This document shows positions 31,121-58,427 of a stretch of DNA of 64,000 nucleotides, one piece after another. The stretch lies in NCBI GenBank assembly GCA_001769275.1, contig MEOQ01000029.1:19219-83218 (forward strand), given 5' to 3'. Both the position numbers and the translations under genes were made by a program. The notes under the pieces were generated by a model that had not been told where the DNA came from, ran no database searches, and saw only the letters and a program-made list of their open reading frames with translations. Each line of letters opens with the position of its first letter. Positions within the stretch are counted from its first letter, which is position 1. The DNA is from Bacteroidetes bacterium GWF2_43_63. Lineage in GTDB: Bacteria > Bacteroidota > Bacteroidia > Bacteroidales > DTU049.

Positions 31121-31123
31121 GTA

Positions 31124-34222: not shown

Positions 34223-34263
34223 ATAAGCCGCAAATGTGAAAATCAGCATTCAAATACATCTCT

Positions 34264-34271: not shown

Positions 34272-34335
34272 TAAAGAAACAAAACTGTCCGGAATCCGTA
34301 AAAAGAATTCAATCACGCGCGATTAATAAAAAGCA

Positions 34336-39660: not shown

Positions 39661-39673
39661 AAAGCGGAAGTGA

Positions 39674-39703
39674 CCATGTCACGGATTTAAAATCCGCGCC
39701 ATG
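39674..39703. repeat. REP-like family H hairpin between the convergent SPOR-protein and mrr genes
   Basis: ccatgtcacggattt-aaaatccgcgccatgg is an imperfect inverted repeat and a plausible bidirectional terminator. Confidence 0.7.
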
Positions 39704-39712
39704 GATGTATCT

Positions 39713-40618
39713 TTATTCATCCCCAAAGTAATCACTATCGATTCTTTTTATCTCAAAAATATTCACAGTCGAAACCGCTAAATTATGATCAATCATAAGT
39801 TCAGCTAAACTTTCTCCGTCAATTAAAACAATCTTTGTTTCATTTCTTGGCTGATATTCTTTTGCTTCATTTGTAAATCTCGAAGTTGTAATGAAAACAC
39901 CTTTTTTTGCACCTTGCCCTGCTAATGCACCCACAAATTTTTGTATTTCAGGTCTTCCAACAACATTTTCCCAGCGTTTTGCTTGTATATAAATTACATC
40001 AAGTCCAAGTTTATCTTCTTTTATTATGCCATCAATTCCTTCATCACCTGAACGACCTATCGAACGACCTGCGTCTTTTATCGAACCGCCGTAACCCATT
40101 TTTACTAATAATTCCACAACTAAAGATTCGAAAAATGCAGGGCTGCTACTTTTAATTTTCAAAAGCAGTTCTTGTGCAAGATTTTTTCTGATACTCAAAT
40201 AACTATTTTCTAATACTTCCTCAGGTGTCGAATCTGTTGGTATATTTTCATTGTCGGTTATCGAATCATCTTCTTTTATTCGGCCAGTTCTTTCCTGATA
40301 AGCTGGGATGGTCTTTAATACCCTCAAATTAATTTCTGTAGGATTCGATCCCAAAAACAGTTTCCCAGCTTCAGTGATTCTAAAAGAACTTCTCTTAGTA
40401 TTTTCAATCAATCCAGCCATTTTAATATGAGACTTTGCCCAGGCAACTCGATTCGAAAAGGTCTTAGCTGCGCCGCTTGGTAAAAATTCATTTATTTCAG
40501 CATCTGTCAGATTAAAATGCTCTGCTAATTTCTGATTAGTCTCATTTGTAGTGTGTTCATCTCCGTCAGATAGAATCTGAATGAAAGGAAGCATAATTGT
40601 CTGAAAATCGGGTATCAT
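39713..40618 (-). CDS. mrr: Mrr-family (type IV, modification-dependent) restriction endonuclease
   Basis: 301 aa. N-terminal Mrr_N-like winged helix (MIPDFQTIMLPFIQIL...RVAWAKSHIKMAGLIE) and C-terminal Mrr_cat core (FESLVVELLVKMGYGG...GDEGIDGII...DVIYIQAKRW). Confidence 0.88.
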   Translation of the reverse strand: MIPDFQTIMLPFIQILSDGDEHTTNETNQKLAEHFNLTDAEINEFLPSGAAKTFSNRVAWAKSHIKMAGLIENTKRSSFRITEAGKLFLGSNPTEINLRVLKTIPAYQERTGRIKEDDSITDNENIPTDSTPEEVLENSYLSIRKNLAQELLLKIKSSSPAFFESLVVELLVKMGYGGSIKDAGRSIGRSGDEGIDGIIKEDKLGLDVIYIQAKRWENVVGRPEIQKFVGALAGQGAKKGVFITTSRFTNEAKEYQPRNETKIVLIDGESLAELMIDHNLAVSTVNIFEIKRIDSDYFGDE

Positions 40619-40694
40619 AATACTTCAATGTTATATGTTTGTGCTTTTATAAGGTTTGCAATAGCGTTATAACGTTATTTGCATCGGTTCCTCA

Positions 40695-40702
40695 CAAAAA
40701 TA
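40695..40702 (-). promoter_or_regulatory. -7 box TATTTTTG at the promoter-proximal end of 84-nt repeat copy 1 (upstream of mrr)
   Basis: CAAAAATA on the plus strand, 76 nt upstream of ATG 40618. Confidence 0.4.
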
Positions 40703-40778
40703 CAAATATTTCACATATACATCAATCGAATTTTTTTGTGCTGGCTTGTGGCGACAGAATGGGGGATTGGGCTGGGAA
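40695..40778. repeat. 84-nt perfect direct repeat, copy 1
   Basis: Identical base for base to 42888-42971: caaaaatacaaatatttcacatatacatcaatcgaatttttttgtgctggcttgtggcgacagaatgggggattgggctgggaa. Confidence 0.95.
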
Positions 40779-40783
40779 TGGTG

Positions 40784-40879
40784 GTCATGTCGCGGATAAC
40801 TCACTGATTATTTTTTTGCAAAGGAGTTCGAGAGCTCATCACTTCCAGCGTTTCGGTTGCCAAATCCGCGCCATGGGGG
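40784..40879. repeat. REP-like family H, split copy
   Basis: Arms gtcatgtcgcggata (40784-40798) and aaatccgcgccatggggg (40862-40879) are separated by ~60 nt. Confidence 0.6.
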
Positions 40880-41067
40880 TGAGTGATTGTGTGTGAATTC
40901 AACAATGTAAATCGTATTTATATCTTACGAAATATTTTCGTCACACTTTGCAAAACAGCAGTTCGCTGGCCTGAACAACCAATGATACTTTAACAATATT
41001 AGAATAACTGTTAGTGGCGTTCCGTTGGGCTCAATGGCCTTCTACTCGATTATGTATTGTTTTAATT

Positions 41068-42003
41068 CTAGTAGTATTCAATAACTCTTTCAATAATATA
41101 TATTTCTTCATCATCAATTATTTCAATTTGCTCAATCCAATTTTCTTTTGAGTCATATTTATATTGATAAGACCATGTTGCATCAATGTTTCCTGAATCA
41201 TTAGTCTCAACAACCTCTTTCTCATTTCCTTTTTCAAAAGTGTACGATATTTTCCCCTCAATCTCTCCTTCAGTAAAATTTTCCCAATATTCATGAGTTC
41301 GAACATAATTCTCATAAACATAAGTTGCTTTTTCTAATATTCCCTCATCACTGTCATGCCATGTTTCAGTAATTAAGTTTCCGTAAGAATCATATAAATA
41401 ATCTAACCATTCTTTGTAGTCATCAAATATTGATTCCTCTTTTATTAATCTGTCATTCTCATCATATGAAAATCGCGTTATTCCAACTTTCTGCCCTTTA
41501 ATGTTAAACTCCTGTTTTTCAACAAGTCGATTGTTCTCATCGTAAAGGAACTTGTATATTGATTCTCTTTCTTCTCCCGGAGCATTTGCATTCGAGGAAC
41601 TTATTTGACTCGGTTGACGATTAGTTTCTTTCATTGAGATTAATCTACCAGACGAGTCGTATGTATAGGTTCTTGTATGATACAACATTTCTGATTTCAC
41701 AAGTTTCCCATTAGCATAATCGAACTGTTCCATTCGGGATATTTTTGAATCTGAGTCAAAGTAGATTTTATTCATCTTGTTACCATTGGAATCAAATTCA
41801 GTTTTGGAATCCTGCTGCCAATTTGATTTCCAACCTCTCCGGATTTTAGCATATCCATCAGTTGTTGATTTTCCAATATAGGATATCTCGGTAATTGATT
41901 TAACCCTATCTTTTAAATTTAAATCTTTTAAAGATAAATCCTGAGCGAATGTCAAGCTTGGCATCAATATTAAAAAAATAATTATTTGTCTGCTAGTTTT
42001 CAT
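41068..42003 (-). CDS. secreted protein with YD/Rhs-like repeats
   Basis: 311 aa. Signal peptide MKTSRQIIIFLILMPSLTFAQ. Recurring Y.YD..G(R/N)L(I/V) units: YTYDSSGRLISM, FLYDENNRLVEK, FSYDENDRLIKE, YLYDSYGNLITE. Very AT-rich. Confidence 0.65.
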   Translation of the reverse strand: MKTSRQIIIFLILMPSLTFAQDLSLKDLNLKDRVKSITEISYIGKSTTDGYAKIRRGWKSNWQQDSKTEFDSNGNKMNKIYFDSDSKISRMEQFDYANGKLVKSEMLYHTRTYTYDSSGRLISMKETNRQPSQISSSNANAPGEERESIYKFLYDENNRLVEKQEFNIKGQKVGITRFSYDENDRLIKEESIFDDYKEWLDYLYDSYGNLITETWHDSDEGILEKATYVYENYVRTHEYWENFTEGEIEGKISYTFEKGNEKEVVETNDSGNIDATWSYQYKYDSKENWIEQIEIIDDEEIYIIERVIEYY

Positions 42004-47464: not shown

Positions 47465-48034
47465 ATGATTCAAGAAAAACATATCTGGAAACCTGGCAAC
47501 ATGCTTTATCCTTTACCGGTAGTCATGGTTTCATGCGGTAATGCCGACGTTCGCAACATTATTACCATTGCATGGACCGGCACTTTGTGCACGACTCCAC
47601 CCATGGTGTACATCTCAGTGCGGCCTGAACGCCATTCATATGCAATGATAAAAGAACAGATGGCATTTACGATTAATCTTGTGGATAAAAATCTGGTGAA
47701 AGCAGCCGACTTCTGCGGAGTCCGGAGTGGGAAAGACCTCGACAAGTTTAAAACCATGAAACTCACGCCTGTGGCCGGAATTCAGATTCCTTGTCCGTAT
47801 ATTGCCGAAAGCCCGCTGTCGATGGAATGCAAAGTGACACAGATTATCGAGCTGGGTTCGCACCACATGTTCATGGCCGAAGTGCTTAACACCATTGCCG
47901 ACGAAAGATTCTTCAACACAAGAACGTCAAAATTCGAAATCGAACGTGCCGCTCTGATAAACTACAATCATGGTGGATACTTCGAGCATGGCGATCTGGT
48001 TGGAACGTTTGGCTATTCGGTGAAGAAGAAATGA
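47465..48034 (+). CDS. flavin reductase-like FMN-binding protein
   Basis: 189 aa. LYPLPVVMVSCG...NIITIAWTGTLCTTPPMVYISVRP matches the flavin_reduct split-barrel pattern. Confidence 0.88.
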   Translation: MIQEKHIWKPGNMLYPLPVVMVSCGNADVRNIITIAWTGTLCTTPPMVYISVRPERHSYAMIKEQMAFTINLVDKNLVKAADFCGVRSGKDLDKFKTMKLTPVAGIQIPCPYIAESPLSMECKVTQIIELGSHHMFMAEVLNTIADERFFNTRTSKFEIERAALINYNHGGYFEHGDLVGTFGYSVKKK

Positions 48035-48164
48035 TTTGCTGATGTACTCATGTGGAAATGTGAGACTTCGTCCATGTGCGGCTTCGCCGATGTGTGAATA
48101 CGATACCCTGGAAAAAATACGATTTAAAATGTGCAGTTTGCAAAAAGGCACTGCGGCTTTTCTT

Positions 48165-48201
48165 CAACCTCTCTGCGTCGCAAAGCGACCTGAGTGCGTT
48201 G
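48165..48201 (+). repeat. REP-like family D copy
   Basis: caacctctctgcgtcgcaaagcgacctgagtgcgttg. Confidence 0.85.
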
Positions 48202-48351
48202 AAGAAACCAGCCTCATTTAGCATAATGCTTGGTGCATGATAATGTTAGGTGCCAGACTAAGCTTCGCTCTCACACTGTCCAAAACTCCTTCTCATCCGC
48301 TGCGGCGGACTGAATGCTGATAGCTGACTGCTGCCAGTTGGTTTGCTGGTT

Positions 48352-48906
48352 TTAGTTTTTCGGCTGCCAGTTTGGATTGAATTGCATGGCCTGCGGTCCG
48401 ATGTGGCCAACATCAATATTCACGGCGCTTTTATTATCATCGGAACGAAACTCGTCAATGATCAGGCAGAATGCGATGATCAGCTCATAGTTGCAATCAT
48501 TGTCGGCCACGATTGTGTAGTTGTCACCATTGAACCAAGAAACAATTTCCTTATCCCACCAGGCAATCTGAATTCCGTTTTTACAGACAGAATATTTCCG
48601 GCCCCGGTGTCCGTAAATTTCATAGGTGTCTTTGTTTAAAACACAGCGATAATGCAGTCTCCAGTATGAAACAGTTTCGAATTGAATTTCCGTACCGATG
48701 GGAAAAATGATTCTGTATTTTGCACGAAACAAGCTCAATTTCTTTTTAATTGTTAAGCGCACCTGCTGATTGATCGCATCGGACAATTGAATTTCGGCCA
48801 GAAATCTGAAAAGCTTTTTCGCTCCGGAATAGCGCTGCTGGCCATCGATAAATATCTGGTATTTGTCTCCGATGGAGATTTTTTTCTGATTGATGTCAAT
48901 TCTCAT
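48352..48906 (-). CDS. hypothetical protein, possibly tubby C-terminal-like / LURP-one-related fold
   Basis: 184 aa. The opening pattern KKISIGDKYQIFIDGQQRYSGAKKLFRF...LSLFRAKYRI resembles the LOR/DUF567 layout. Assignment is tentative. Confidence 0.5.
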   Translation of the reverse strand: MRIDINQKKISIGDKYQIFIDGQQRYSGAKKLFRFLAEIQLSDAINQQVRLTIKKKLSLFRAKYRIIFPIGTEIQFETVSYWRLHYRCVLNKDTYEIYGHRGRKYSVCKNGIQIAWWDKEIVSWFNGDNYTIVADNDCNYELIIAFCLIIDEFRSDDNKSAVNIDVGHIGPQAMQFNPNWQPKN

Positions 48907-48917
48907 AGGGTGTTTTT

Positions 48918-49412
48918 TTATTGGACCTGAATAATTTTCACTTCAACTCTTCGGTTGATGGAGTGCATGGGTTCCTGCAATTCTTTTGATTGAAGTGCGT
49001 CAATTTCTTCTTTTAAAATAAGTGGTTGTTGTCTACCGTAGCCTTTTATTTCAATTCTGGTCGGATCAATTTCAAACAAACCAACGAGTACTTCTTTAAC
49101 TGATCCTGCCCGATGATAGGAAATGGTGTCATTGAAGTCATCCGTGCCGCGGTAATCGGTGTGCACGCCAATTTCAATGCACATTCCGGGATGCGCATTC
49201 AGAAAATCGGCAATTATTTTTACCGAGTCTTCGCATTCAGGAAGAACGCGTGACCCTCCGCTCAGGGTAAACAAAATTTTAGGTGCCAAAATATTGTCTC
49301 CGGCAGCGAATACCGAATCGTTGAATGATTTATAACCAGCAATGTGCTGTTGCGCATGAATTGGGGTTAGCAACCCAGCGAAAAGCCAGAATATGCAAAA
49401 GATTTTCTTCAT
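48918..49412 (-). CDS. OmpA-like peptidoglycan-binding domain protein
   Basis: 164 aa. Signal peptide MKKIFCIFWLFAGLLTPIHAQ. IEIGVHTDYRGTDDFNDTISYHRAGSVKEVLV...IEIKGYGRQQP...NRRVEVKII is the OmpA_C-like core. Confidence 0.8.
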   Translation of the reverse strand: MKKIFCIFWLFAGLLTPIHAQQHIAGYKSFNDSVFAAGDNILAPKILFTLSGGSRVLPECEDSVKIIADFLNAHPGMCIEIGVHTDYRGTDDFNDTISYHRAGSVKEVLVGLFEIDPTRIEIKGYGRQQPLILKEEIDALQSKELQEPMHSINRRVEVKIIQVQ

Positions 49413-50200
49413 TCAATACGCATTACTGTATTCTCCGAAATTACGAAAACAGATGGATCTGTATAAGGATTTACCCGAATAAAGCCTTCTTCAAAGCCCC
49501 AGTTTTCGCTGAGTGATTCGGCATTAATAATCAGCATACGGCTGTCTTTTCTGAATTCTGAACCACTATAGTTATTCATAAACGGAAGCTGTGAATAAAT
49601 AATTTTACCAGTAATCCGGTCAACAATAGCCATTTGCTGACAACTGCTCCCACAGCCCCACGTAACAATTGTGTAATGACCGGCAAAGTTCACCCCTTCG
49701 TCTTCACATCCATTTTTAATTCTTGTAACAAATTTCAATGCACTGCGATCTGTCGAAAAATCTGGCATTGCAAGTTTTCCTGAATATATTTCAGCAACAT
49801 CAAAATCGCAAAAATCATTTTTGAAGCTGAATTTCACAAACACGCCAGGCGTGGCAATAGCTTCATAGTTTGCAACAATAATTTTTTTTGGATCTTCGAA
49901 AACGGTATCGCCGTGTTTATAAAATTTTGATTTTTCACCATGTTTCAGAATTTCATACTTCATAAGTTTCGACGCTTTGAACATGATATTGTCGATCTTA
50001 ATAATCGTGTCGCCTGATATAGGATTAAAACAATTATCAAGTCTATCAATACCATTAAATGCTGATTTTTCAGCATTACTATTTTGACTATTGCATGAAT
50101 AAAGAATTAAAGTAAAGGCAATGAAAACCCACAGAAAATAATCAGTGATTTTTCGATTCTCTAATAAGTAGATTAATTGTTTTAAACAGGAATTAATCAT
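49409..50200 (-). CDS. hypothetical lipoprotein
   Basis: 263 aa with lipobox ...FTLILYSC. C-terminal motif NFAGHYTIVTWGCGSSCQ. The stop overlaps the ATG of the OmpA-like gene (4-nt overlap). Confidence 0.6.
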   Translation of the reverse strand: MINSCLKQLIYLLENRKITDYFLWVFIAFTLILYSCNSQNSNAEKSAFNGIDRLDNCFNPISGDTIIKIDNIMFKASKLMKYEILKHGEKSKFYKHGDTVFEDPKKIIVANYEAIATPGVFVKFSFKNDFCDFDVAEIYSGKLAMPDFSTDRSALKFVTRIKNGCEDEGVNFAGHYTIVTWGCGSSCQQMAIVDRITGKIIYSQLPFMNNYSGSEFRKDSRMLIINAESLSENWGFEEGFIRVNPYTDPSVFVISENTVMRIE

Positions 50201-50274
50201 TAATCGAAAATATGCATTTTATTGATTGAAAATCTTCCATTCATAAATCACCAACAATAATGTTTTTCATTTTT

Positions 50275-52362
50275 CTATTCCTTGAAAAATTTCAATGAAT
50301 GAATTCCCGCTTTGTTGCTGATGGAGAGCAAATACATGCCATTGCTCAGTTGATGAACCGGCACAACGATGTAACCGCCCTGAGCTTGCTGAATACTTGA
50401 ATAGACGCGGCGTCCATGCAAATCGAAAACAATCACTTCGCAATCAGATTCAGCACCAGCGATGGTAATATAATCTTTTGCAGGATTTGGAAACAGCATC
50501 AAATCTGGTTTACTGAAATCAGCGACTGAAACAGGCGAGGTGCGGTAATTACATTTGAATCCCTGCGCGTGCGTGGTAGCCGTTGTTTTGAGCGTGATGG
50601 TCATGGTGCCGTTGGCGGAATACAAAACCGGAGGCAGTTGGTTGCCTTTGAAATCACCAAGTATGACATTTGTTGTATGATCGGTTACTCTGACGTAATC
50701 GCTGGAATCCACATCAAATTCTGAAAATGAAAGAAGTATCGGCTCGCCTGATGCCGGCTCAATTTTCCAGCGACAGAAATTATTTCCGTGGTACATGTAA
50801 GGACCAGAGCCATCTTCGATGGTGTCGGATTCAGCAGTAATTGTTGACAACGCCGTGCAGAATCCAAAAGGAGAAACAATGCTATAGGAAATCAGAAAGC
50901 CGGCTGCAGTGTCAGCGGCATTGCTTGTGAATGTAAGAAATACGCGATCGCCCGTGGACTGAATTATTGAAGGAATCGAAGAACCGCTGTAGGAGCCAAG
51001 TACAGGCGCCGAAGTGTTTTCTCCGTCGTAGATTGTCAGCACATCGTTGACGCTCTCAGTTTCAAAGCGGTCGAACGTAAGTTTAATGCTGGTTGCGCTG
51101 TCGTCCGGAGCAATCAGCCAGGAGCAATCCGTATTGTTGCGATAGCCGAACAAAGGTCCGGAGCCGTCATCGATGGTACCGTCGCGTGAGCTGACCGTGT
51201 CGGTTCCGTTGCAATAATATGGGTATGGGCCATCGGGATACATGTTGACAACTAGTTCATGCATCAAAGTAAAATCAGCTCCACTGGGTGTCAGATTGCT
51301 GGTGTAGAAATAGCCGTCGGCAGAGCCGCCCCAGCCCCAGTTGAAGTGAAAAAAACAGGTATCCTGATAGCCATCCACCACGAAAGCGTGTCCGCTCATA
51401 TAGATGGTGTCGCCCCAGCCCGCATAATACATGGGCAGTCCGCGTTCAAGGTGACTGATAATAACGCTATCCCAGTTGAGCGTAACCGAATCACGGAAAA
51501 TGTATCGGGTTGAATCGACATATTTGAAAAAAGTTTTTAAAACATGAGCTGCCTTGTGGTTGTTCATTCCGCTTCCGTCGGGGCCATAGTGCATATCGAC
51601 GCCAACTCCGATATTATAGATAAGTTCTGCTGTCTCCGGATTGGTGCGGGTGAGTGCGGTAGCCATTTCGTTAAAATCATAGGTCGCAGCAGCATAATCA
51701 ACGGTGAGCGTTCCATACACCGTGTCTTCGCTTGTGTAGGACCCAACGCCGGATTGCGGCCAGCGAAAATAATTCACCAATTGTCCAAGTGCTGTGGCCA
51801 CACAACCAGTATAACATTTATCATCGGGTCCATCGGGATCGGCCGGACAGAATTCATTGTAGTAAGTTACCTGATACCATTTTGTTGTCAGAAGAGGTGC
51901 AACCTGTCCTTTCGGCGCATTAATGCTTCCAATCATATAATCGGCCCAAAGCTGTTGATTTTCCGGATTCTGATAATTTTTCAAAACAGATGTTTCGTAA
52001 ACTTGTTTTGAATAATTTTCGAGCAATGCATTCAATGCCGGATTTGAATGATTTTGCGGGCAGTGGTTTTCGGACGAATAAGCCACAACGGGAACAATAT
52101 TTTTATTGGCGGAAACAATTATAAATCCCTCCGGAAAAAGATTGAAAACATAGTAGGTTGTTTCCCCATTTAATACGCCGGTATAAGATTCTGCAAAATA
52201 AGGTGCGAAACTGTTTCCAAGCCGTTGTGTTGCAAAATTGGCCGCCACAGTGCTTGCTTCTTCCGGAGTGACGCTCTGCGCTTTTGCAAGATTGCCGTAA
52301 AACAAATCAAGGGCAAGGAACAACGCCAGGCCCGCAACAAATCTCATTGATTTGAATTTCAT
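50275..52362 (-). CDS. C10-family cysteine peptidase with two CUB-like domains and T9SS C-terminal domain
   Basis: 695 aa.
- Catalytic contexts: YTGCVATALGQLVNYF, GHAFVVDGY, HFNWGWGGSADGYF.
- Two CUB-like modules: GTIDDGSGPLFGYRNNTDCSWLI... and DTIEDGSGPYMYHGNNFCRWKI....
- C-terminus: LFPNPAKDYITI...GMYLLSISN. Confidence 0.9.
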   Translation of the reverse strand: MKFKSMRFVAGLALFLALDLFYGNLAKAQSVTPEEASTVAANFATQRLGNSFAPYFAESYTGVLNGETTYYVFNLFPEGFIIVSANKNIVPVVAYSSENHCPQNHSNPALNALLENYSKQVYETSVLKNYQNPENQQLWADYMIGSINAPKGQVAPLLTTKWYQVTYYNEFCPADPDGPDDKCYTGCVATALGQLVNYFRWPQSGVGSYTSEDTVYGTLTVDYAAATYDFNEMATALTRTNPETAELIYNIGVGVDMHYGPDGSGMNNHKAAHVLKTFFKYVDSTRYIFRDSVTLNWDSVIISHLERGLPMYYAGWGDTIYMSGHAFVVDGYQDTCFFHFNWGWGGSADGYFYTSNLTPSGADFTLMHELVVNMYPDGPYPYYCNGTDTVSSRDGTIDDGSGPLFGYRNNTDCSWLIAPDDSATSIKLTFDRFETESVNDVLTIYDGENTSAPVLGSYSGSSIPSIIQSTGDRVFLTFTSNAADTAAGFLISYSIVSPFGFCTALSTITAESDTIEDGSGPYMYHGNNFCRWKIEPASGEPILLSFSEFDVDSSDYVRVTDHTTNVILGDFKGNQLPPVLYSANGTMTITLKTTATTHAQGFKCNYRTSPVSVADFSKPDLMLFPNPAKDYITIAGAESDCEVIVFDLHGRRVYSSIQQAQGGYIVVPVHQLSNGMYLLSISNKAGIHSLKFFKE

Positions 52363-53642
52363 TACTTTGATTTTTCGAGTTGTTTGATCAGTTTTCTGGT
52401 CATCTGACGGATGAAAGGCATAACGTCATCTTCGTTTACCATTGTGAGGCGACCGTTTTCAACCACCAGATGTCCGTTGGAGATAACGTGAGAAATGTGT
52501 TTGCTTTCAATTCCAAAAATCATGTGCATGGCCATGTTGGCGGGAGTGACTTCTTCGGGTGCCGGATAATCGAGTATGATGAGGTTGTTTTCGGCATCTC
52601 CGCAGATTTTGTTTCGCAGAAAATATTCATTGCCCGCTCTCAGACGCTGAATGGCAATAGTCGGATCGATATGATCGAATCCCTGACCGGCCAGGAAAGC
52701 CATTTTGGCGCTTCGCAGCATGTTGCCATGCAATCCATCGGTGCCCAGCATAATGTTTTCACCCATGCCTTCGGAATTGAAGAATCCAACATTGCTGCGG
52801 AGATTGCTTTCCATATTTTCGACCACGAAAACGCCGGTCTTGTTTATCAGTTCAGCTTCTTCGTTGCTCAGATGGATGGCGTGGGCAAGTACTGTTTTGG
52901 TACTTTCAAGAGCACCTGCATCATACAAACGCTCGACAACAGTCACTCCATATTCTTTCAGACTTTGTTCCTGATCGATGGTGCTTTCGGCTACATGAAT
53001 ATGAACGCCGGTTTTATGCTTCGAAGCCATTTCAACCGCATTTTTCAGTGTTGTTGAACCAACGGTAAAACTAGCGTGCAGACCTACGAGACCCGGCTTG
53101 CCCGAAAGCCAGCTGTCGGTATAGTCCAGCCCTTCGTCAGATGCGGAATAACTTTTCCGGTCACTGATTTCGAAACAGGGTAAAAATTGTAAGCCAAGTT
53201 TTTTAAATGCCTTTTCTATGGTTTCGAGTGAACCTTTTATGAAGTTTTGACTCGAATGATGTTCAATCACGCATGTGACGCCATTTTTCAATGATTCCAT
53301 CGCAGAGTAAAGAGCGCAGGCTTCGAGCACATCGGCATCGAGAAACTGATCAATTTTCCAGGCACCGGTTTTCAGTCTGAATTCAAAATCGTCGGTGTTG
53401 GTGAGTTTATGCGTCCTTGTCAGACTAACATAGCTATGATGATGGCCATTGACAAAAGAGTGTGTGACTAGTTTTCCAAAGCAATCTATAATTCTGACGT
53501 CAGTTTGATTTTCAAGCAAATCATTAACATCCGAACTGGTTACAAGCTTTTTTTTACTTTCACCTTCGACTAAGATATTGGTGAACAGTAGTTTATTTTG
53601 CCTGAAATCAAAATAATTTGCGTTTTTAAGAATAATTGACAT
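52362..53642 (-). CDS. amidohydrolase-superfamily protein (chlorohydrolase/aminohydrolase, SsnA-like)
   Basis: 426 aa. Metal ligands FVNGHHHSY, GVHIHVAES, LAHAIHL and LGTDG. Its stop TAA shares one base with the ATG of the downstream C10 gene (TAATG at 52360-52364). Confidence 0.85.
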   Translation of the reverse strand: MSIILKNANYFDFRQNKLLFTNILVEGESKKKLVTSSDVNDLLENQTDVRIIDCFGKLVTHSFVNGHHHSYVSLTRTHKLTNTDDFEFRLKTGAWKIDQFLDADVLEACALYSAMESLKNGVTCVIEHHSSQNFIKGSLETIEKAFKKLGLQFLPCFEISDRKSYSASDEGLDYTDSWLSGKPGLVGLHASFTVGSTTLKNAVEMASKHKTGVHIHVAESTIDQEQSLKEYGVTVVERLYDAGALESTKTVLAHAIHLSNEEAELINKTGVFVVENMESNLRSNVGFFNSEGMGENIMLGTDGLHGNMLRSAKMAFLAGQGFDHIDPTIAIQRLRAGNEYFLRNKICGDAENNLIILDYPAPEEVTPANMAMHMIFGIESKHISHVISNGHLVVENGRLTMVNEDDVMPFIRQMTRKLIKQLEKSK

Positions 53643-53718
53643 TTTTCCTTTTTTAAAAATTTACCTTTGAGGTCCAGAGGCATCAAAGGTTGGTCAAAGA
53701 TAATAAATTATAGTATTT

Positions 53719-56472
53719 ATGAAATCAACGATAGAAGAATTATATAAATTCCTTGACGAAGCCGGCGATAATGATATCCCGGCAATTAAAGTTGTTGAGT
53801 ATCTGGATGCTATGCAGCTCAGGCAATTTGGCAAAAAGCATCATGACCACTATACAGAGTTGCTTGAAGGATTTTCGACATTTAAGGATATCCAAAGTCT
53901 TTCTGATTTTATATCCGGTTTTCTGTATTCGGTTATTGGACAGGAGAATGCTATAACCGTTATTTCGCTCTGTAACAATGAAAACGCTGAGTTTCATACC
54001 GTGTCGATAGCAGGTTGTTCTGATTTGCTTGAAAAAGTCGGAAAACTGACTGAATCAGGCCAATTGTCGCTTGCCATGAAGAACAGTCTGGATGATTTAA
54101 CCCCTATGTTCGAGGATCGCCTGCTGCAGATAGAATCGTTGTACCATTTTGTTCATAAATCCATCCCTGAAGAGGCTTGTCCAGCTGTTGAAGAATACAT
54201 CAATCTTCATTATTACTATGGTTATCCCATCAGTGACGGAAATAAAATCATTGCAACAGTTTCGCTGGCTGTCCCCAATTGTTTATCAGAAGTAAAATTC
54301 ATTGAGCTGGACAGGATGATCCGTTTTGCGAGGCAGTTTTATATTCTGTTATTCAATTTTCAGCAAAGCGACCAGTTGAACCGTCAGATGACTTCGGTTT
54401 TTGACATGACTGATCTGGCATTTGGACTTTTTTCGAGCGATGGACATTTGATAAAAGCAAACAGTTCATTCAATACGTTGTTCAATTCTTTTGACACACC
54501 GCATTTATTTGATCCCGCATTTGTAAAGGTCCTAGGAATAAAAGATGTTTATCAGCTAAAACAAGGTATCGAAGTTCAGATGGATGTTTCGGAGAATGTT
54601 TTCAGAGATTTACCTTCTCTTGCTGAGTATTCGCGTGGGAGAATAGTGCCGGTCAAAGCAACCGATACAACCATAACTTCTTTTATTTTCATTCTTCACT
54701 CCCGAAAGGCAGAGCTTCGGATTCTGGAGACTGTGAAAAAAAATGAACAAAAATATCAACGTATATTCAATTACATTCAGGATGTATATTTCGAAATTAA
54801 ACTGGATGGAACAATTCTCGAGATCAGTCCATCATTATACCACTACACCAATATTAATCCGGTCACTCTGATTGGAACAAACATTCAGTCATTATACCAG
54901 AATCCATCTCAGCGTGATAATTATATACAAGAGATTTTAGCCAAGGGCAGGGTTGATAACTTTGAAATTGACATTCAGTTGCCTGATGGGAAAATATTCA
55001 ACACCATTGTCACCGCATCGCTCGTCGATGCGGGAACTGATTTTGAGCGAATCATTGGTTCCATGGTTGATGTATCGGAACTGAATAAAAAAACGAAAGC
55101 AATTCTTGATAATGAAATCAAGTTCAGATCTCTGTTTGACAATGCTCCGATTGGCTTTATGATATGTGATATTGATGGCGAAATTCTTGAAATGAATCCA
55201 GCTTTTCTGAGTATTTTTCAATTAAAGAGCATTGACAAAAGTAAAGAGACCAATGTTTTAAAAAACGAAACCGCTCAAAAACTTGGTGTCTCTGCGCTTG
55301 CAAAAAGTGTTATTGACACTGGAAAACCTGTGTTTACCGAATCTTTATTCTTGTGTCCGGATGGAGTCGAACGAAGTTTTAAATTGAAGATCAGTACCAT
55401 TCCTGATCAGACCGGTGGATTAAGACATATTCTTTTTATTGCTGAAGACATTACCGACATAAAAGCTAAAGACCTTGCATTGGAAGAGAGTCGTGAGCGT
55501 TTTCTCGATATTTATAACAATACGAGCGATTTGATTTACACAATGGATTTTGAAGGAAATTTCACTTCGGTAAATCCTGTTGCGGAAAAATGGCTTGGAT
55601 ACAGATTCCAGGATCTGAAAAATCGCAACATGCGTGAATATATTTCTCACGATAGTGTTCAACGTGCAATGGAGCAGGTAAGACTTAAGCTGGCACATGC
55701 TTCAAATCACTCCACTTATGAGGTAACTGCTTATACGCGAAACAAGGATAAAATGATCCTTGAGATCAACAGTTTTCTGCGGTACAAGGATGGAAATCCC
55801 ATTGAAGTATTTGGAATTGCGCGCGATATTACTGAGCGCAAGAAGCATGAAGAGTTTATCACATTAGCGCTGCGTGAGCGCGAAAAGTTGATTATGGAAG
55901 TTCACCACAGGATTAAAAACAATCTGCAATTGGTGCTTTCAATGTTGAAAATGTATTCCTACAATCTCGAGGATAAAAAAACGCTTCAGACATTCAGAGA
56001 TATTATTCAGAAAATAATGGCAATTTCTGCAGCGCACGAAGATTTTTATTTCAGTACAGATTTCAAAGAAATTGACTTCGGAAAATATTTGGAGACAGTC
56101 GTAGTGAATTCAATAGAACAATTCGACCATCATAATAAGGTTAAATATAAAATTGAATCAGATGAATTGAAAGCGACAATTGACGAAGTTGTTCCGCTGG
56201 GTCTGATTGTATCCGAACTTCTTTCAAACAGTATCAGACATGGAGTAGACAAAGATGGAACGGTGAACTTATATATTGGTTTACAAAATATCGGCTCAAA
56301 GCATGAATTAATAGTAAAAGATGATGGGCCGGGAATTCCAGCTGAAACATTAAGCAATATTGGACAGTCATTGGGGCTGTCGCTGGTAGCTATGCTTGCC
56401 GAGGATCAGCTGGGTGGTAAGTACCTGGTAGAATCAAATGAAAGCGGAACAATCGTGAAGGTTGAATTCTGA
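53719..56472 (+). CDS. multi-PAS sensor histidine kinase (HisKA_2/HWE-type dimerisation domain + HATPase_c)
   Basis: 917 aa. Several PAS-like modules, phospho-His region EVHHRIKNNLQLVLSML and ATPase motifs ELLSNSIRHG...DDGPGIP...GLSLV. Confidence 0.9.
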   Translation: MKSTIEELYKFLDEAGDNDIPAIKVVEYLDAMQLRQFGKKHHDHYTELLEGFSTFKDIQSLSDFISGFLYSVIGQENAITVISLCNNENAEFHTVSIAGCSDLLEKVGKLTESGQLSLAMKNSLDDLTPMFEDRLLQIESLYHFVHKSIPEEACPAVEEYINLHYYYGYPISDGNKIIATVSLAVPNCLSEVKFIELDRMIRFARQFYILLFNFQQSDQLNRQMTSVFDMTDLAFGLFSSDGHLIKANSSFNTLFNSFDTPHLFDPAFVKVLGIKDVYQLKQGIEVQMDVSENVFRDLPSLAEYSRGRIVPVKATDTTITSFIFILHSRKAELRILETVKKNEQKYQRIFNYIQDVYFEIKLDGTILEISPSLYHYTNINPVTLIGTNIQSLYQNPSQRDNYIQEILAKGRVDNFEIDIQLPDGKIFNTIVTASLVDAGTDFERIIGSMVDVSELNKKTKAILDNEIKFRSLFDNAPIGFMICDIDGEILEMNPAFLSIFQLKSIDKSKETNVLKNETAQKLGVSALAKSVIDTGKPVFTESLFLCPDGVERSFKLKISTIPDQTGGLRHILFIAEDITDIKAKDLALEESRERFLDIYNNTSDLIYTMDFEGNFTSVNPVAEKWLGYRFQDLKNRNMREYISHDSVQRAMEQVRLKLAHASNHSTYEVTAYTRNKDKMILEINSFLRYKDGNPIEVFGIARDITERKKHEEFITLALREREKLIMEVHHRIKNNLQLVLSMLKMYSYNLEDKKTLQTFRDIIQKIMAISAAHEDFYFSTDFKEIDFGKYLETVVVNSIEQFDHHNKVKYKIESDELKATIDEVVPLGLIVSELLSNSIRHGVDKDGTVNLYIGLQNIGSKHELIVKDDGPGIPAETLSNIGQSLGLSLVAMLAEDQLGGKYLVESNESGTIVKVEF

Positions 56473-56473
56473 A

Positions 56474-56839
56474 TTACTTTACGAAACCGCTGCAGGCAGC
56501 AGCACCAAAGGGCAGATCGTTATCATCGGAAAACAAGACTGCATCGCCCTGCACGATTTCGACTTCAACATAGCCTGTATCAGTCGCATTTTTCGCCTGC
56601 AGATAAACGTATGTATCTGGTCTCGCACTGAATTCATAACTCCAGGGAATGGTTCCTGTTGAAAGTCCTGTCAACGTAGTCTCCCCCTTATCGTTTACAT
56701 AGGTTACCAGAATTTCGGCAGCAGTACCATTAACCTTGTAGGCCATCTTTTTTTTGAAGACAACGATTTGGCTTGATTTGTCACATGAGGTCACAAAAAC
56801 AACTGGGAGGAGCAGTAACAGAAAGATGAATTTCTTCAT
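56474..56839 (-). CDS. small hypothetical lipoprotein
   Basis: 121 aa with lipobox MKKFIFLLLLLPVVFVTSC. Beta-rich sequence. Confidence 0.6.
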   Translation of the reverse strand: MKKFIFLLLLLPVVFVTSCDKSSQIVVFKKKMAYKVNGTAAEILVTYVNDKGETTLTGLSTGTIPWSYEFSARPDTYVYLQAKNATDTGYVEVEIVQGDAVLFSDDNDLPFGAAACSGFVK

Positions 56840-56957
56840 TTTAATTCAGTTTAAGTATTTTAAACGTGGCTAAATTAGAAAAGTTTTTTCAAATGGTAAA
56901 AAAAACTTGCATAAAGTTGATTTTCAATTAAAACCCGGCTCCGTCTTTTCTTCACTT

Positions 56958-58427
56958 TCACGGTAGCGGCTCTGTACTTCCTTGCTTATTTCGAACAAAC
57001 CAGACAAAGAAAAGAGCCAGAACCAGAAATGTAATCCCGGCTCCAATACCAATAGACATATTGTATGGAAGTTGAAGGCCTTCAGGTGCGAAGAATATAT
57101 AGGATGAAGCAACCATTGTCATGAACACGGCCGGGATGAACGAAACGAGCCAAAGCTTCTTTTCACCAAGCAGATAAACGGTGATTGCCCAAAGGGTTAT
57201 TGTCGCAAGAGTCTGATTACTCCAGGCCATATAGCGCCAAATGATTCCAAAATCGATTTGAGTAAGAACAAAGCCGCATAAAAAGAGCGGTGAGGCAATG
57301 AGCAACCGATTTGCGATTTTTTTCTGTTTTAAATGGATGAAATCGGCCACAATCAGCCGGGCACTCCGAAAAGCAGTATCTCCCGAGGTGATGGGTGCCG
57401 CCACAACTCCAAGAATCGCAAGGAAAGCACCGAAGCGACCCAGCAATGAGTTGCTGATTTCATTCACTACCCACGCAGCATTCCCGTTTTTTGCAATCAT
57501 CGTGTCGTTCAGTTGTTCAACACCTCCGAAAAACGCCATGGCTGCTGCAGCCCAGATCAGAGCAAGGATTCCTTCCGTAATCATGGCTCCGTAAAATACG
57601 CGCCGGCCATATTTTTCATTTTTTATACACCGGGCCATCAGAGGACTTTGAGTAGCATGAAATCCTGATATAGCGCCACAGGCAATAGAAATGAACATCA
57701 TCGGAAATATGGGCATCGCATCGCCTTTGATGTGCTGATTATATAGATTCCCTGTGAGTTCTGGTAGGTGGAAATTTCCGAACAGAATGGCCCCAATGAT
57801 TGCTGCTGCCATAAACAGTAATGCAAAACCAAATATCGGATAAATGCGCCCGATTAATTTGTCGATCGGAAGCATGGTGGCCAGAAAGTAATAAATAAAC
57901 ACGATTATTGCCCAGAAAGTCAAATCAAATGCTATTGCTGTGTTTCCGATATTCAATACTCCGGGTGTGAGCCCGGCAAGAATTCCGGCAGGCCCCATAA
58001 TGAAGACCGCTCCAACCAGAACCATCAGCATAACGGTGAAGGCGCGCATAAACTGCATGACGGGTTTTCCAAGATATTTTCCAATGATTTCCGGCAGGCT
58101 TAGCCCGTCAAGCCGAACGCTCATCATTCCGGCCATGTAATCGTGAACAGCACCTCCGAAGATAGAACCGAAAACAATCCACAGGAAAGCCGATGGGCCC
58201 CACATGGCTCCGGCTATTGCTCCGAAAATGGGCCCGAGGCCGGCGATATTCAGGAACTGAATAAGAAAAATTTTATACCAGGGCAAGGGAACATAATCCA
58301 CGCCATCTTGTTTTGAAAATGCAGGCGTAGTGCGCGTTTTGTCAACTCCGAAAATCTTTTCCATCAGCAAGCCATAAAACAAATAGCCCGCGATAAGGAT
58401 TCCCACTGAAATGAGAAATGTGTACAT
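56958..58427 (-). CDS. cstA: carbon starvation protein A family transporter
   Basis: 489 aa, polytopic. The N-terminus (MYTFLISVGILIAGYLFYG...) and FLIQFLNIAGLGPIFGAIAGAMWGP match CstA-family patterns. Confidence 0.9.
   Translation of the reverse strand: MYTFLISVGILIAGYLFYGLLMEKIFGVDKTRTTPAFSKQDGVDYVPLPWYKIFLIQFLNIAGLGPIFGAIAGAMWGPSAFLWIVFGSIFGGAVHDYMAGMMSVRLDGLSLPEIIGKYLGKPVMQFMRAFTVMLMVLVGAVFIMGPAGILAGLTPGVLNIGNTAIAFDLTFWAIIVFIYYFLATMLPIDKLIGRIYPIFGFALLFMAAAIIGAILFGNFHLPELTGNLYNQHIKGDAMPIFPMMFISIACGAISGFHATQSPLMARCIKNEKYGRRVFYGAMITEGILALIWAAAAMAFFGGVEQLNDTMIAKNGNAAWVVNEISNSLLGRFGAFLAILGVVAAPITSGDTAFRSARLIVADFIHLKQKKIANRLLIASPLFLCGFVLTQIDFGIIWRYMAWSNQTLATITLWAITVYLLGEKKLWLVSFIPAVFMTMVASSYIFFAPEGLQLPYNMSIGIGAGITFLVLALFFVWFVRNKQGSTEPLP

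What the first reader, a model, noticed from the sequence alone, without database searches (positions are those of the whole stretch)
48352..53642. Five-gene minus-strand string: amidohydrolase translationally coupled to a C10-CUB-T9SS peptidase, then lipoprotein, OmpA-like and tubby/LOR-like proteins
Seen in the sequence:
- The amidohydrolase stop and the C10 peptidase start share a base (TAATG at 52360-52364).
- 74 nt downstream a 263-aa lipoprotein gene starts.
- Its stop overlaps the ATG of a 164-aa OmpA-like gene by 4 nt.
- An 11-nt gap then precedes a 184-aa ORF.
- No terminator-like hairpin is visible inside the string.

Established knowledge: C10 peptidases (SpeB; Bacteroides Bfp) are commonly co-transcribed with small cognate inhibitor proteins.

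Inference:
- The lipoprotein (C-terminal NFAGHYTIVTWGCGSSCQ domain) or the 184-aa protein could be a cognate inhibitor or partner.
- The OmpA-like protein could tether the complex to the wall.
- Coupling a cytoplasmic-type metal amidohydrolase to a secreted protease is unusual and suggests a shared substrate pathway.
Basis: partly seen in the sequence, partly recalled or inferred. Interest (0 to 1): 0.55.

Follow-up and report, generated by a model that had tools for sequence, protein, structure and literature searches.

The report
Composite gene string around C10 protease
The five tightly packed genes are real and probably share one transcript, but only the amidohydrolase–protease pair is conserved in relatives; the three small downstream genes sit next to the protease only because a deletion removed what lay between, so they are unlikely to be its inhibitors.

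Summary
All five minus-strand ORFs, their junctions (TAATG overlap, 74-nt gap, ATGA overlap, 11-nt gap) and the domain calls were verified, and the same arrangement recurs in 12 independently assembled contigs.

The interpretation mostly fails.
- Seven relative configurations with 49–88 % amidohydrolase identity conserve a different core: a divergent PAS kinase, then amidohydrolase–C10, followed in all but one by a GroES-like (Cpn10) gene.
- Only one of those configurations (L001/L002) has lipoprotein–OmpA–YxjI downstream, and there four other genes lie between them and the C10 gene.
- The window's 74-nt "intergenic gap" holds the first eight codons of that Cpn10-like gene, which marks a deletion. 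The C10–lipoprotein adjacency is therefore secondary.
- YxjI (70 genomes) and the lipoprotein family (4 distant contexts) have no protease neighbour elsewhere. Neither predicted structure resembles a known inhibitor.
- More distant amidohydrolase homologues (≤48 % identity) lie in SsnA-type purine-degradation clusters without a protease.

The amidohydrolase–protease linkage is genuinely conserved within one Bacteroidales clade, but whether it is functional is unknown. Overall this is an ordinary, lineage-specific composite locus.

The parts
53695..53702 (-). Candidate promoter -7 box (TATCTTTG, matching the Bacteroidota consensus TAnnTTTG), 52 nt upstream of the amidohydrolase ATG. It is the only exact match on the minus strand across the whole string.
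   Evidence: In this window, 14 of 40 motif matches lie within 120 nt upstream of a same-strand gene start, whereas only about 3.7 % of positions qualify.
52362..53642 (-). Cytoplasmic metal-dependent amidohydrolase, SsnA-like but below the SsnA family cut-off. It is the first gene of the conserved core.
   Evidence: Amidohydro_1, E 2.6e-26. NCBIfam SsnA: 286 bits against a cut-off of 444. His/Asp positions at the family's HxH, HIHVAE and TDG motifs are invariant or >=90 % conserved in the family alignment; assigning them as metal ligands is inference. dN/dS 0.05 against L002.
50275..52362 (-). Secreted C10 (streptopain-family) cysteine peptidase zymogen: signal peptide, I69-like prodomain, catalytic domain, two CUB domains and a T9SS C-terminal sorting domain.
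   Evidence: the streptopain and interpain A zymogens align over residues 61-375. Catalytic motifs GCVATA (position 186), GHAF (324) and WGWGG (342) are present. dN/dS 0.14.
50241..50270 (-). Deletion scar: a vestigial 9-codon ORF (MKNIIVGDL*) whose first 8 codons match the 5' end of the GroES-like (Cpn10) gene that directly follows the C10 gene in relatives.
   Evidence: Alignment with L002 and L082. The Cpn10-like proteins start MKNIIVVGDRV.... The blastn match to L002 runs from the amidohydrolase through C10 to window position 50252 and then breaks. No other Cpn10-like remnant occurs in the window.
49409..50200 (-). Lipoprotein of an uncharacterised family, with a conserved C-terminal domain of about 135 aa carrying the motif NFAGHYT..WGCGS.C. 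It is the first gene of the variable tail and the lowest-GC gene in the window.
   Evidence: No Pfam or NCBIfam hit. Family alignment and motif. AF2 model: pLDDT 87, with no PDB match at E <= 0.001. GC 0.343, z = -2.0. dN/dS 0.21.
48918..49412 (-). Periplasmic OmpA_C-type (peptidoglycan-binding) protein in a short form, consisting of a signal peptide plus the OmpA_C domain. Relatives carry an extra N-terminal domain of about 210-235 aa.
   Evidence: Pfam OmpA, E 4.4e-10. Alignment with the 374-aa and 386-aa forms. The short form is shared with L008. dN/dS 0.26.
48352..48906 (-). Cytoplasmic YxjI/LOR-family (tubby-like) protein of unknown function, the last gene of the string.
   Evidence: Identity to relatives is 88 % and dN/dS is 0.09. 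No conserved neighbour in 70 genomes.
53719..56472 (+). Divergently transcribed PAS/HisKA_2 histidine kinase. It is the conserved upstream neighbour of the amidohydrolase, both in the C10 clade and in the purine-cluster outgroups.
   Evidence: synteny.
47465..48034 (+). Convergent flavin reductase gene that marks the far boundary of the variable region in the closest relatives.
   Evidence: in L082 it lies immediately after the Cpn10-like gene.

Best explanation
The string is a lineage-specific composite, not a dedicated five-gene functional module.

Conserved core. It consists of a divergent PAS histidine kinase and an operon-like run: SsnA-like amidohydrolase, then a C10/CUB/T9SS cysteine peptidase, then, in all but one relative configuration, a GroES-like (Cpn10) gene. 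This block has been inherited vertically in one uncultured Bacteroidales clade.

Variable tail. Everything downstream of the core differs between relatives. In the window's lineage a deletion removed the Cpn10-like gene after codon 8, and probably further ORFs. That brought a separate lipoprotein-OmpA_C-YxjI segment to within 74 nt of the C10 stop codon. A second in-frame deletion shortened the OmpA-like protein.

How it works.
- The five genes are probably read from the single promoter upstream of the amidohydrolase (inferred, not shown).
- The C10 peptidase is made as a zymogen. Its own I69-type prodomain keeps it latent until T9SS export and autoprocessing (inferred from homology to streptopain and interpain A).
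- The lipoprotein, the periplasmic peptidoglycan-binding OmpA_C protein and the cytoplasmic YxjI protein are unrelated envelope and housekeeping genes that share the transcript by accident of rearrangement.
For: - ORFs, junctions and domains verified.
- The I69 prodomain and catalytic Cys/His/Trp motifs are present, with full-length similarity to the streptopain and interpain zymogens.
- Amidohydrolase-C10 is conserved in the window, L079, L080/L002, L082, L166, L167/168, L169/170 and L171, spanning 94 to 49 % amidohydrolase identity. The PAS kinase lies divergent upstream in every locus that includes the upstream sequence, and Cpn10 lies directly downstream in L001/L002, L082, L166, L167/168 and L171.
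- Kinase, amidohydrolase, C10 and Cpn10 identities fall together across these loci, which indicates vertical co-inheritance.
- The genes downstream of the core differ in every configuration.
- The deletion scar at 50270-50241 is collinear with the Cpn10-like 5' end of L002 and L082, and there are no other remnants.
- OmpA short versus long form.
- L008 and L009 lack the lipoprotein upstream of OmpA.
- YxjI in 68 more distant genomes, and the lipoprotein in 4 distant genomes, have none of the other four genes nearby.
- The window's second C10 paralogue lacks these neighbours.
- Single -7 box, no terminator.
- All five genes are under purifying selection, dN/dS 0.05-0.27.
- dS relative to L002 is uneven along the string (about 1.4-1.7 for amidohydrolase/C10/lipoprotein against 0.5-0.9 for OmpA/YxjI/flavin reductase), and the lipoprotein gene has unusually low GC. 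Both fit a mosaic history.
Against: - No transcript data exist, so co-transcription and the absence of an internal promoter are inferred. The AT-rich 74-nt scar contains one-mismatch versions of the -7 box (TATTGTTG, TATTTTCG).
- The lipoprotein-OmpA ATGA overlap and the OmpA-YxjI spacing are kept in L001/L002, so the tail genes may have some relationship with each other.
- No protein-protein interaction prediction could be run, so a lineage-specific interaction between C10 and a tail protein is not formally excluded.
- The direction of the events (deletion in the window versus insertions in relatives) rests on parsimony plus the Cpn10 remnant.
- NG86 dS values near 1.5 are close to saturation.
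Confidence: 0.75

Rival explanations
1. The lipoprotein (or the 184-aa YxjI-like protein) is a cognate inhibitor or partner of the C10 peptidase, co-transcribed with it as in SpeB-Spi, Bfp-Bfi or staphopain-staphostatin, and the OmpA-like protein tethers the complex to peptidoglycan.
For: - Co-orientation, tight spacing, no terminator.
- Precedent for inhibitors encoded next to the protease gene (PMC2873492).
- The lipoprotein is exported and so could meet the zymogen in the periplasm.
- YxjI is a cytoplasmic beta-barrel, loosely like the staphostatins.
Against: - Adjacency results from a deletion.
- Five relative configurations keep the C10 gene without any of the three tail genes.
- L001/L002 has four genes between C10 and the lipoprotein.
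- YxjI (68 loci) and the lipoprotein (4 loci) occur without a C10 neighbour.
- Sizes of 263 and 184 aa contrast with 116-138 aa for Bfi.
- No sequence or fold similarity to Spi, the propeptide or staphostatin; no PDB match at E <= 0.001.
- The C10 peptidase has its own I69 prodomain.
- The OmpA-like protein has no membrane anchor or lipobox, and its N-terminal domain is dispensable.
- The paralogous C10 has no such partners.
Confidence: 0.04
2. The conserved core (PAS kinase | amidohydrolase-C10-Cpn10) is a true functional unit. The amidohydrolase and the secreted protease would act in one nutrient-acquisition or signalling pathway under the kinase. Alternatively, the cytoplasmic GroES-like protein would guard or chaperone the C10 zymogen, as staphostatin does. 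On this view the window has lost one component.
For: - The triad is kept with 0-7-nt junctions (3-4 nt at the deepest locus, L171) from 88 down to 49 % amidohydrolase identity, while everything downstream is reshuffled.
- The Cpn10-like gene is a small cytoplasmic beta-barrel protein encoded immediately after the protease gene, a position analogous to staphostatin (PMC2873492).
- The amidohydrolase left its ancestral purine-cluster context exactly where C10-Cpn10 appears: C10 context at 49-50 % identity, purine context at 48 %.
Against: - The upstream block (CstA-rSAM-aminotransferase-118aa-kinase) is equally syntenic, so conservation may simply be inherited gene order.
- The junction is not fixed: overlaps, gaps of 3-12 nt, and an MGS-like gene inserted in L169.
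- L169 lacks Cpn10, and the window lost it while C10 stays intact and under purifying selection.
- The Cpn10-like protein is a bona fide GroES homologue.
- There is no biochemical logic linking a cytoplasmic ring-opening amidohydrolase to an extracellular endopeptidase.
Confidence: 0.15
3. The tail (lipoprotein-OmpA_C-YxjI) is an independent transcription unit driven by a promoter in the AT-rich scar, so the 'five-gene operon' is really two units (2 + 3).
For: - The 74-nt gap is the only sizeable gap. It is AT-rich and contains near-consensus -7 boxes about 50 nt upstream of the lipoprotein ATG.
- In L008 and L009, OmpA-YxjI are preceded by non-coding DNA, so they must have their own promoter there.
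- Composition and dS change at this point.
Against: - No exact TAnnTTTG motif in the gap.
- No terminator after the C10 gene, so read-through is expected anyway.
Confidence: 0.3

Closest known systems
Streptopain-family (MEROPS C10) zymogens secreted by Bacteroidota, such as interpain A of Prevotella intermedia and periodontain of Porphyromonas gingivalis
   Same: - N-terminal I69-type prodomain followed by the C10 catalytic domain.
- Catalytic Cys/His motifs conserved.
- Full-length similarity to the SpeB and interpain A zymogen structures.
- C-terminal T9SS sorting domain, as in other Bacteroidota secreted proteases.
   Different: Two CUB domains lie between the catalytic domain and the T9SS tail; their best PDB sequence match is metazoan cubilin, E 4e-33. 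No activity or substrate data exist.
Protease/cognate-inhibitor gene pairs: SpeB-Spi, Bacteroides fragilis Bfp-Bfi, staphopain-staphostatin
   Same: A cysteine protease gene is followed by small co-oriented ORFs with no terminator between them.
   Different: - Known inhibitors are 105-138 aa, lie within about 35 bp of the protease gene, and resemble the propeptide (Spi) or a lipocalin-like barrel (staphostatin, Bfi) (PMC2873492).
- Here the neighbours are 263, 164 and 184 aa and show no such similarity.
- They are not conserved next to the protease, and they became adjacent through a deletion.
SsnA, the ring-opening amidohydrolase of the reductive uric-acid / 2,8-dioxopurine pathway (E. coli ygeW-ssnA-xdhD cluster)
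   Same: SsnA is the best NCBIfam match (286 bits), and the conserved His/Asp metal-ligand motifs are kept. Homologues at 43-48 % identity sit beside XDH subunits, a hydantoinase, and YgeW-like and YgeY-like genes (bioRxiv 10.1101/2025.05.19.654654).
   Different: The score is below the SsnA equivalog cut-off of 444 bits. In the window's clade the purine-cluster neighbours are replaced by C10 and Cpn10 genes. The substrate is unknown.
YxjI / LURP-one-related (PF04525) tubby-like proteins
   Same: Twelve-stranded barrel with a C-terminal central helix in the AF2 model. Homologues are listed with PF04525 and are named YxjI by JGI.
   Different: The window protein itself scores below the Pfam cut-off (16.1 against 24.5 bits). 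No function is known for bacterial members, and there is no conserved gene neighbourhood.

Membership tests
Peptidase family C10 (streptopain family) | Pfam PF01640 match above the gathering score | tested here: met
   171 bits against a cut-off of 26, covering profile positions 1-194 of 194.
Peptidase family C10 (streptopain family) | Catalytic Cys and His in the conserved motifs, plus the WGWGG tryptophan motif | tested here: met
   GCVATA at 186, GHAF at 324 and WGWGG at 342. The Cys and His motifs are conserved in all six relative C10 sequences examined.
Peptidase family C10 (streptopain family) | Zymogen with an N-terminal inhibitory prodomain (I69-like) | tested here: met
   Inhibitor_I69, 59 bits against a cut-off of 25, residues 28-121. 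The SpeB and interpain zymogen structures align from residue 61-68 onward.
T9SS cargo | C-terminal Por_Secre_tail / TIGR04183 sorting domain plus an N-terminal signal peptide | tested here: met
   PF18962, 42 bits, and TIGR04183, 37 bits, both above their cut-offs. Hydrophobic N-terminus MKFKSMRFVAGLALFLAL.
Protease-cognate inhibitor operon (SpeB-Spi / Bfp-Bfi / staphostatin type) | Partner resembles the protease propeptide (Spi) or the staphostatin/lipocalin-like barrel | tested here: not met
   - No Pfam I69 or other family hit in the lipoprotein or YxjI.
- PDB sequence searches found no inhibitor.
- Foldseek found no PDB match at E <= 0.001 for either AF2 model.
Protease-cognate inhibitor operon (SpeB-Spi / Bfp-Bfi / staphostatin type) | Small ORF (about 105-140 aa) immediately adjacent (within about 35 bp) to the protease gene | tested here: not met
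   The nearest ORF is 263 aa at 74 nt. The 184-aa ORF is three genes away. Criteria are from PMC2873492.
Protease-cognate inhibitor operon (SpeB-Spi / Bfp-Bfi / staphostatin type) | Partner gene co-occurs with the protease gene in related genomes | tested here: not met
   - Five C10-bearing configurations lack all three tail genes.
- 68 YxjI loci and 4 lipoprotein loci lack a C10 neighbour.
Protease-cognate inhibitor operon (SpeB-Spi / Bfp-Bfi / staphostatin type) | Physical binding to, and inhibition of, the protease | not testable with these tools
   No multimer prediction or biochemistry is available.
SsnA (NCBIfam NF005540 / TIGR03314) | Score at or above the curated equivalog cut-off | tested here: not met
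   286.4 bits against 444, and 252.6 bits against 455.5.
SsnA (NCBIfam NF005540 / TIGR03314) | Genomic association with XdhD/YgfK/HyuA-type purine-degradation genes | tested here: not met
   These genes are absent from the window. They are present next to homologues at 43-48 % identity.
OmpA_C-like peptidoglycan-binding proteins (PF00691) | Pfam match above the gathering score | tested here: met
   40.2 bits against 27.2.
OmpA_C-like peptidoglycan-binding proteins (PF00691) | A membrane anchor (beta-barrel or lipid), needed for a tethering role | tested here: not met
   The protein is only a signal peptide plus the OmpA_C domain. Relatives carry a non-barrel N-terminal domain of 210-235 aa that is missing here.
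LOR / YxjI (PF04525, tubby-like) | Pfam match above the gathering score | tested here: not met
   The window protein scores 16.1 bits against 24.5. 13 of 24 relatives match at E <= 0.01, best 1.4e-5. PF04525 is listed for nearly all homologues in the precomputed table.
LOR / YxjI (PF04525, tubby-like) | Twelve-stranded barrel around a central C-terminal helix | tested here: inconclusive
   The AF2 model has 12 strands plus helix 140-157, pTM 0.85. Foldseek matches to TULP1: probability 0.91-0.96, TM 0.44-0.46, but E 0.16-0.22.
Single operon | Co-orientation, short or overlapping junctions, no internal terminator, one promoter | tested here: met
   (computational evidence only).
Single operon | One continuous transcript | not testable with these tools
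   No transcriptome data are available.

The most novel reading that the evidence does not exclude
The conserved triad in this uncultured Bacteroidales clade is a functional unit. It comprises an SsnA-derived amidohydrolase, a C10/CUB/T9SS protease and a GroES paralogue, next to a divergent PAS kinase. In this reading the small cytoplasmic GroES-like barrel, encoded immediately after the protease gene, acts as a staphostatin-like guard or dedicated chaperone for the C10 zymogen. The window would then represent a natural loss-of-guard variant. Separately, the lipoprotein's C-terminal domain of about 135 aa (FAGH..WGCG..C motif; 4,489 clusters at 50 % identity; no Pfam or NCBIfam model; no PDB fold match) could be a new fold family with an as yet unknown envelope function.
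Probability: 0.1. Interest if true: 0.55.

Novelty: new member of a known kind. Interest (0 to 1): 0.22.

Why it matters
As written, the finding would have suggested a new class of C10 protease inhibitors in environmental Bacteroidota. The evidence points the other way. The apparent protease-partner arrangement is a by-product of deletions in a variable region, and the peptidase is a conventional self-inhibited T9SS zymogen.

The case is a useful caution. Tight spacing and stop/start overlaps in a single genome do not establish a functional module.

Three things remain mildly interesting:
- a clade-wide linkage of an SsnA-derived amidohydrolase, a C10-CUB protease and a GroES paralogue;
- the displacement of that amidohydrolase from its ancestral purine-degradation cluster;
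- a very widespread, unannotated lipoprotein domain.

Tried and rejected
- **Lipoprotein as inhibitor.** There is no Pfam, NCBIfam or PDB sequence hit. The only sub-threshold PDB match is MazF at E 0.065, which I judged to be chance. Foldseek found no match at E <= 0.001; the top hits are beta-propeller fragments with TM about 0.2.
- **YxjI as a staphostatin-like barrel.** No such match was found; only tubby-like matches appeared.
- **Conserved neighbours of YxjI.** None exist: the largest neighbour cluster covers 5 of 70 loci.
- **My own early inference that amidohydrolase-C10 is confined to relatives with at least 86 % identity.** This came from the metagenome scan and was wrong. Intermediate relatives at 77, 70, 56 and 50 % identity all keep the pair, so I revised it.
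- **Insertion model.** A cassette inserted into Cpn10 should leave a 3' remnant beyond YxjI. No remnant exists in the window, so a deletion or replacement is favoured.
- **Lipoprotein N-terminus derived from one of the L002 genes missing here.** There is no tblastx similarity.
- **Sigma-70-type promoter scan.** It is uninformative for Bacteroidota, so I used the TAnnTTTG motif instead.
- **Rfam and tRNA scans of the window.** Nothing was found.
- **Fused domains in longer lipoprotein-family members.** None were found.
- **Literature on YxjI and on C10/CUB/T9SS.** Nothing specific turned up.

Full report
**1. Observation**

| Gene | Coordinates (−) | Length |
|---|---|---|
| Amidohydrolase | 52362-53642 | 426 aa |
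| C10 peptidase | 50275-52362 | 695 aa |
| Lipoprotein | 49409-50200 | 263 aa |
| OmpA-like | 48918-49412 | 164 aa |
| 184-aa ORF (YxjI-like) | 48352-48906 | 184 aa |

- The junctions are a one-base TAATG overlap, a 74-nt gap, a 4-nt ATGA overlap and an 11-nt gap.
- Pfam confirms Amidohydro_1 for the first gene. For the peptidase it finds Inhibitor_I69, Peptidase_C10, two CUB domains and Por_Secre_tail. For the fourth gene it finds OmpA.
- The lipoprotein has no family hit.
- The 184-aa protein scores only 16 bits against LOR/PF04525. Its homologues are listed with PF04525 and named YxjI. Its AF2 model has the tubby-like topology of 12 strands plus a C-terminal helix.
- No terminator-like structure lies in any gap.
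- The same gene order is found in 12 contigs from independent assemblies, including GCA_003518945.1. The lipoprotein is 100 % identical to a protein of "Bacteroidetes bacterium GWF2_43_63". The arrangement is therefore real.

**2. Transcription signals**

- The sigma-70 scan is not appropriate for Bacteroidota, so I used the phylum's −7 box, TAnnTTTG.
- In this window, 14 of 40 motif matches lie within 120 nt upstream of a same-strand gene start, although only about 3.7 % of positions qualify.
- On the minus strand of the string there is exactly one match, at 53695-53702, 52 nt upstream of the amidohydrolase ATG.
- The 74-nt gap holds only one-mismatch versions of the motif.
- A single transcript is therefore plausible but unproven. 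A secondary promoter in the gap cannot be excluded.

**3. The peptidase**

- It aligns with the streptopain and interpain A zymogens from the prodomain through the catalytic domain.
- It keeps the catalytic motifs GCVATA, GHAF and WGWGG.
- Together with the I69 prodomain and the T9SS tail, this describes a conventional secreted zymogen whose latency is provided in cis.
- A second C10 paralogue in the same window (19757-21175, 28 % identity; I69 + C10 + T9SS) is flanked by an OMP beta-barrel gene and an alpha/beta-hydrolase gene. None of the proposed partners is nearby.

**4. Neighbourhood conservation: the tail**

- In the closest relative that has the lipoprotein (L001/L002), the order is amidohydrolase, C10, Cpn10-like (114 aa), 355 aa, 51 aa, 339 aa, lipoprotein, OmpA (374 aa), YxjI. 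Four genes therefore separate C10 from the lipoprotein.
- L082 has amidohydrolase, C10 and Cpn10, and then directly the convergent flavin reductase gene. The tail is absent.
- L008 and L009 have OmpA-YxjI preceded by non-coding DNA, with no lipoprotein in the 96 and 437 nt available upstream.
- In 70 genomic YxjI loci, only these two close relatives have an adjacent OmpA gene. None has a lipoprotein, C10 or amidohydrolase homologue within 10 kb, and YxjI has no conserved neighbour at all.
- Four distant lipoprotein homologues (L005, Hymenobacter L159, Mangrovimonas L160, L161) have unrelated neighbours.

**5. The deletion scar**

- Directly after the C10 stop codon the window reads ATGAAAAACATTATTGTTGGTGAT (MKNIIVGD), followed by TTATGA.
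- This aligns with the start of the Cpn10-like gene of L002 and L082 (MKNIIVVGDRV...). It also lies inside the collinear blastn match that runs from the amidohydrolase through C10 to window position 50252 and then breaks.
- No other fragment of the Cpn10-like gene, the 355/51/339-aa genes or the long OmpA N-domain exists in the window.
- The C10-lipoprotein adjacency is therefore secondary.
- The OmpA-like protein is likewise a short form. About 210 codons present in L002 and L009 are missing, while the signal peptide and the OmpA_C domain are kept. L008 shares this short form.
- All five genes remain under purifying selection, with dN/dS of 0.05-0.27.
- The lipoprotein gene is the lowest-GC gene in the window (0.343, z = −2).
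- dS relative to L002 differs along the string: about 1.4-1.7 for amidohydrolase, C10 and lipoprotein, against 0.5-0.9 for OmpA, YxjI and the flavin reductase gene. This fits a mosaic history, with the caveat that the higher values are near saturation.

**6. Neighbourhood conservation: the core**

My first inference, from the metagenome scan, was that C10 follows the amidohydrolase only in relatives with at least 86 % identity. That was too narrow. Targeted look-ups showed the pair persisting much further out:

| Locus | Amidohydrolase identity | Arrangement after the amidohydrolase |
|---|---|---|
| L166 | 77 % | C10, then Cpn10 |
| L167/L168 | 70 % | C10, then Cpn10 |
| L169/L170 | 56 % | MGS-like gene, then C10; no Cpn10 |
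| L171 | 49-50 % | C10, then Cpn10 |

- In all of these, the PAS kinase lies divergent upstream, and in the longer contigs a CstA-rSAM-aminotransferase-118aa block lies beyond it. Every locus has different genes downstream.
- Kinase, amidohydrolase, C10 and Cpn10 identities decline together, which indicates vertical co-inheritance.
- At 48 % identity (P0261), and in 43-47 % homologues, the amidohydrolase sits among XDH subunits, a hydantoinase and YgeW-like and YgeY-like genes. In L093, L096, L154 and P0261 it is still next to a divergent PAS kinase. No C10 gene is present.
- That is the SsnA-type reductive purine and uric-acid cluster (bioRxiv 10.1101/2025.05.19.654654).
- The window's enzyme scores 286 bits against the SsnA model (cut-off 444) and keeps the conserved His/Asp metal-ligand motifs.
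- The amidohydrolase-C10(-Cpn10) block is therefore a long-lived feature of one clade, in which an SsnA-derived enzyme lost its purine-cluster neighbours.
- Whether this reflects function or inherited gene order cannot be decided here. The junction itself varies: a 1-nt overlap, 4-nt overlaps, gaps of 3-12 nt, and an inserted gene.

**7. The small proteins themselves**

- *Lipoprotein.* The model is confident (pLDDT 87, pTM 0.72) but has no PDB match at E <= 0.001. Its conserved C-terminal domain (motif NFAGHYT..WGCGS.C) is found in 4,489 clusters at 50 % identity, many of them stand-alone proteins of 150-210 aa. None of the 20 additional family members scanned has a Pfam match, and the 10 of them also checked against NCBIfam have none either. 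One cluster includes a member from Longimicrobiaceae.
- *YxjI.* It has no signal peptide and is highly conserved (88 % identity to L002, dN/dS 0.09).
- *Comparison with known inhibitors.* Neither protein resembles Spi, the propeptide or the staphostatin/Bfi type. The known Bacteroides partners are 116-138 aa and lie within 35 bp of the protease gene (PMC2873492).

**8. Verdict**

- The operon reading is plausible.
- The amidohydrolase-protease linkage is real and conserved within one clade.
- The locus is best described as a conserved core (PAS kinase | amidohydrolase-C10-[Cpn10, deleted here]) fused by deletion to a variable tail of unrelated envelope and housekeeping genes.
- Interest is low. 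The residual curiosities are the conserved amidohydrolase-C10-GroES-paralogue triad and the widespread, unannotated lipoprotein domain.

Noticed in passing
window 50241-50270 (-); L002 3457-3801; L082 10362-10706; L166 10345-10701; L167 10327-10683; L171 10326-10682: A GroES paralogue of 114-118 aa (Pfam Cpn10; E 2e-8 to GroES structures; no signal peptide) directly follows the C10-CUB peptidase gene in five relative configurations, with overlaps or gaps of at most 5 nt. In the window only its first 8 codons survive. Its position is analogous to staphostatin genes, but no functional link has been shown.
   Followed up: partly
window 49409-49840 (-) (lipoprotein residues about 120-263): The C-terminal domain of about 135 aa, with a near-invariant FAGH..WGCG..C motif, is very widespread (4,489 clusters at 50 % identity at E <= 1e-3; 3,219 at E <= 1e-10). 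It has no Pfam or NCBIfam model and no significant PDB fold match, despite a confident AF2 model. It looks like an undescribed domain family.
   Followed up: partly
window 19757-21175 (-): A second C10 peptidase paralogue (472 aa; I69 prodomain + C10 + T9SS tail, no CUB; 28 % identical to the first). It is flanked by an OMP beta-barrel gene (18991-19698) and an alpha/beta-hydrolase gene (21541-22560).
   Followed up: partly
window 52362-56472; L093, L096, L154, P0261 locus: The divergent PAS-kinase | SsnA-like amidohydrolase pair is older than the C10 association. In homologues at 45-48 % identity, the same pair is embedded in an XDH / hydantoinase / YgeW / YgeY purine-degradation cluster. This suggests the kinase may originally have regulated purine catabolism.
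   Followed up: partly
window 48918-49412 (-) vs L002 6880-8004 and L006 450-1610: The OmpA-like protein exists in a short form (164-165 aa; window and L008) and a long form (374-386 aa; L002 and L009). They differ by an in-frame N-terminal domain of about 210 codons that has no confident family assignment (weak MORN-like hit).
   Followed up: partly
window 50275-52362 (-), residues about 384-610: The two CUB domains of the peptidase match metazoan CUB proteins strongly (cubilin E 4e-33; neuropilins E about 1e-16). The C10+CUB+T9SS architecture is conserved throughout the clade.
   Followed up: no
window 56474-58427 (-): In relatives (L166, L167, L169, L171), a radical-SAM (BATS) gene and an aminotransferase gene lie between CstA and the ~120-aa gene. 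In the window, CstA (56958-58427) is followed directly by the 121-aa gene (56474-56839). This suggests another deletion in the same lineage.
   Followed up: no
window 28962-42003: A cluster of genes typical of mobile or defence regions: a phage-type ORF6N/Rha regulator (28962-29498), an Mrr restriction endonuclease (39713-40618) and an RHS-repeat protein (41068-42003).
   Followed up: no
window-wide: The Bacteroidota -7 box TAnnTTTG is roughly ten-fold enriched within 120 nt upstream of gene starts (14 of 40 matches). It is a usable promoter marker for this genome; the sigma-70 consensus scan is not.
   Followed up: yes
window 47465-53642 vs L002: Synonymous divergence from the same relative is uneven along the locus: dS about 1.4-1.7 for amidohydrolase, C10 and lipoprotein, against 0.5-0.9 for OmpA, YxjI and the flavin reductase gene. 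This hints at recombination between lineages within this region.
   Followed up: partly
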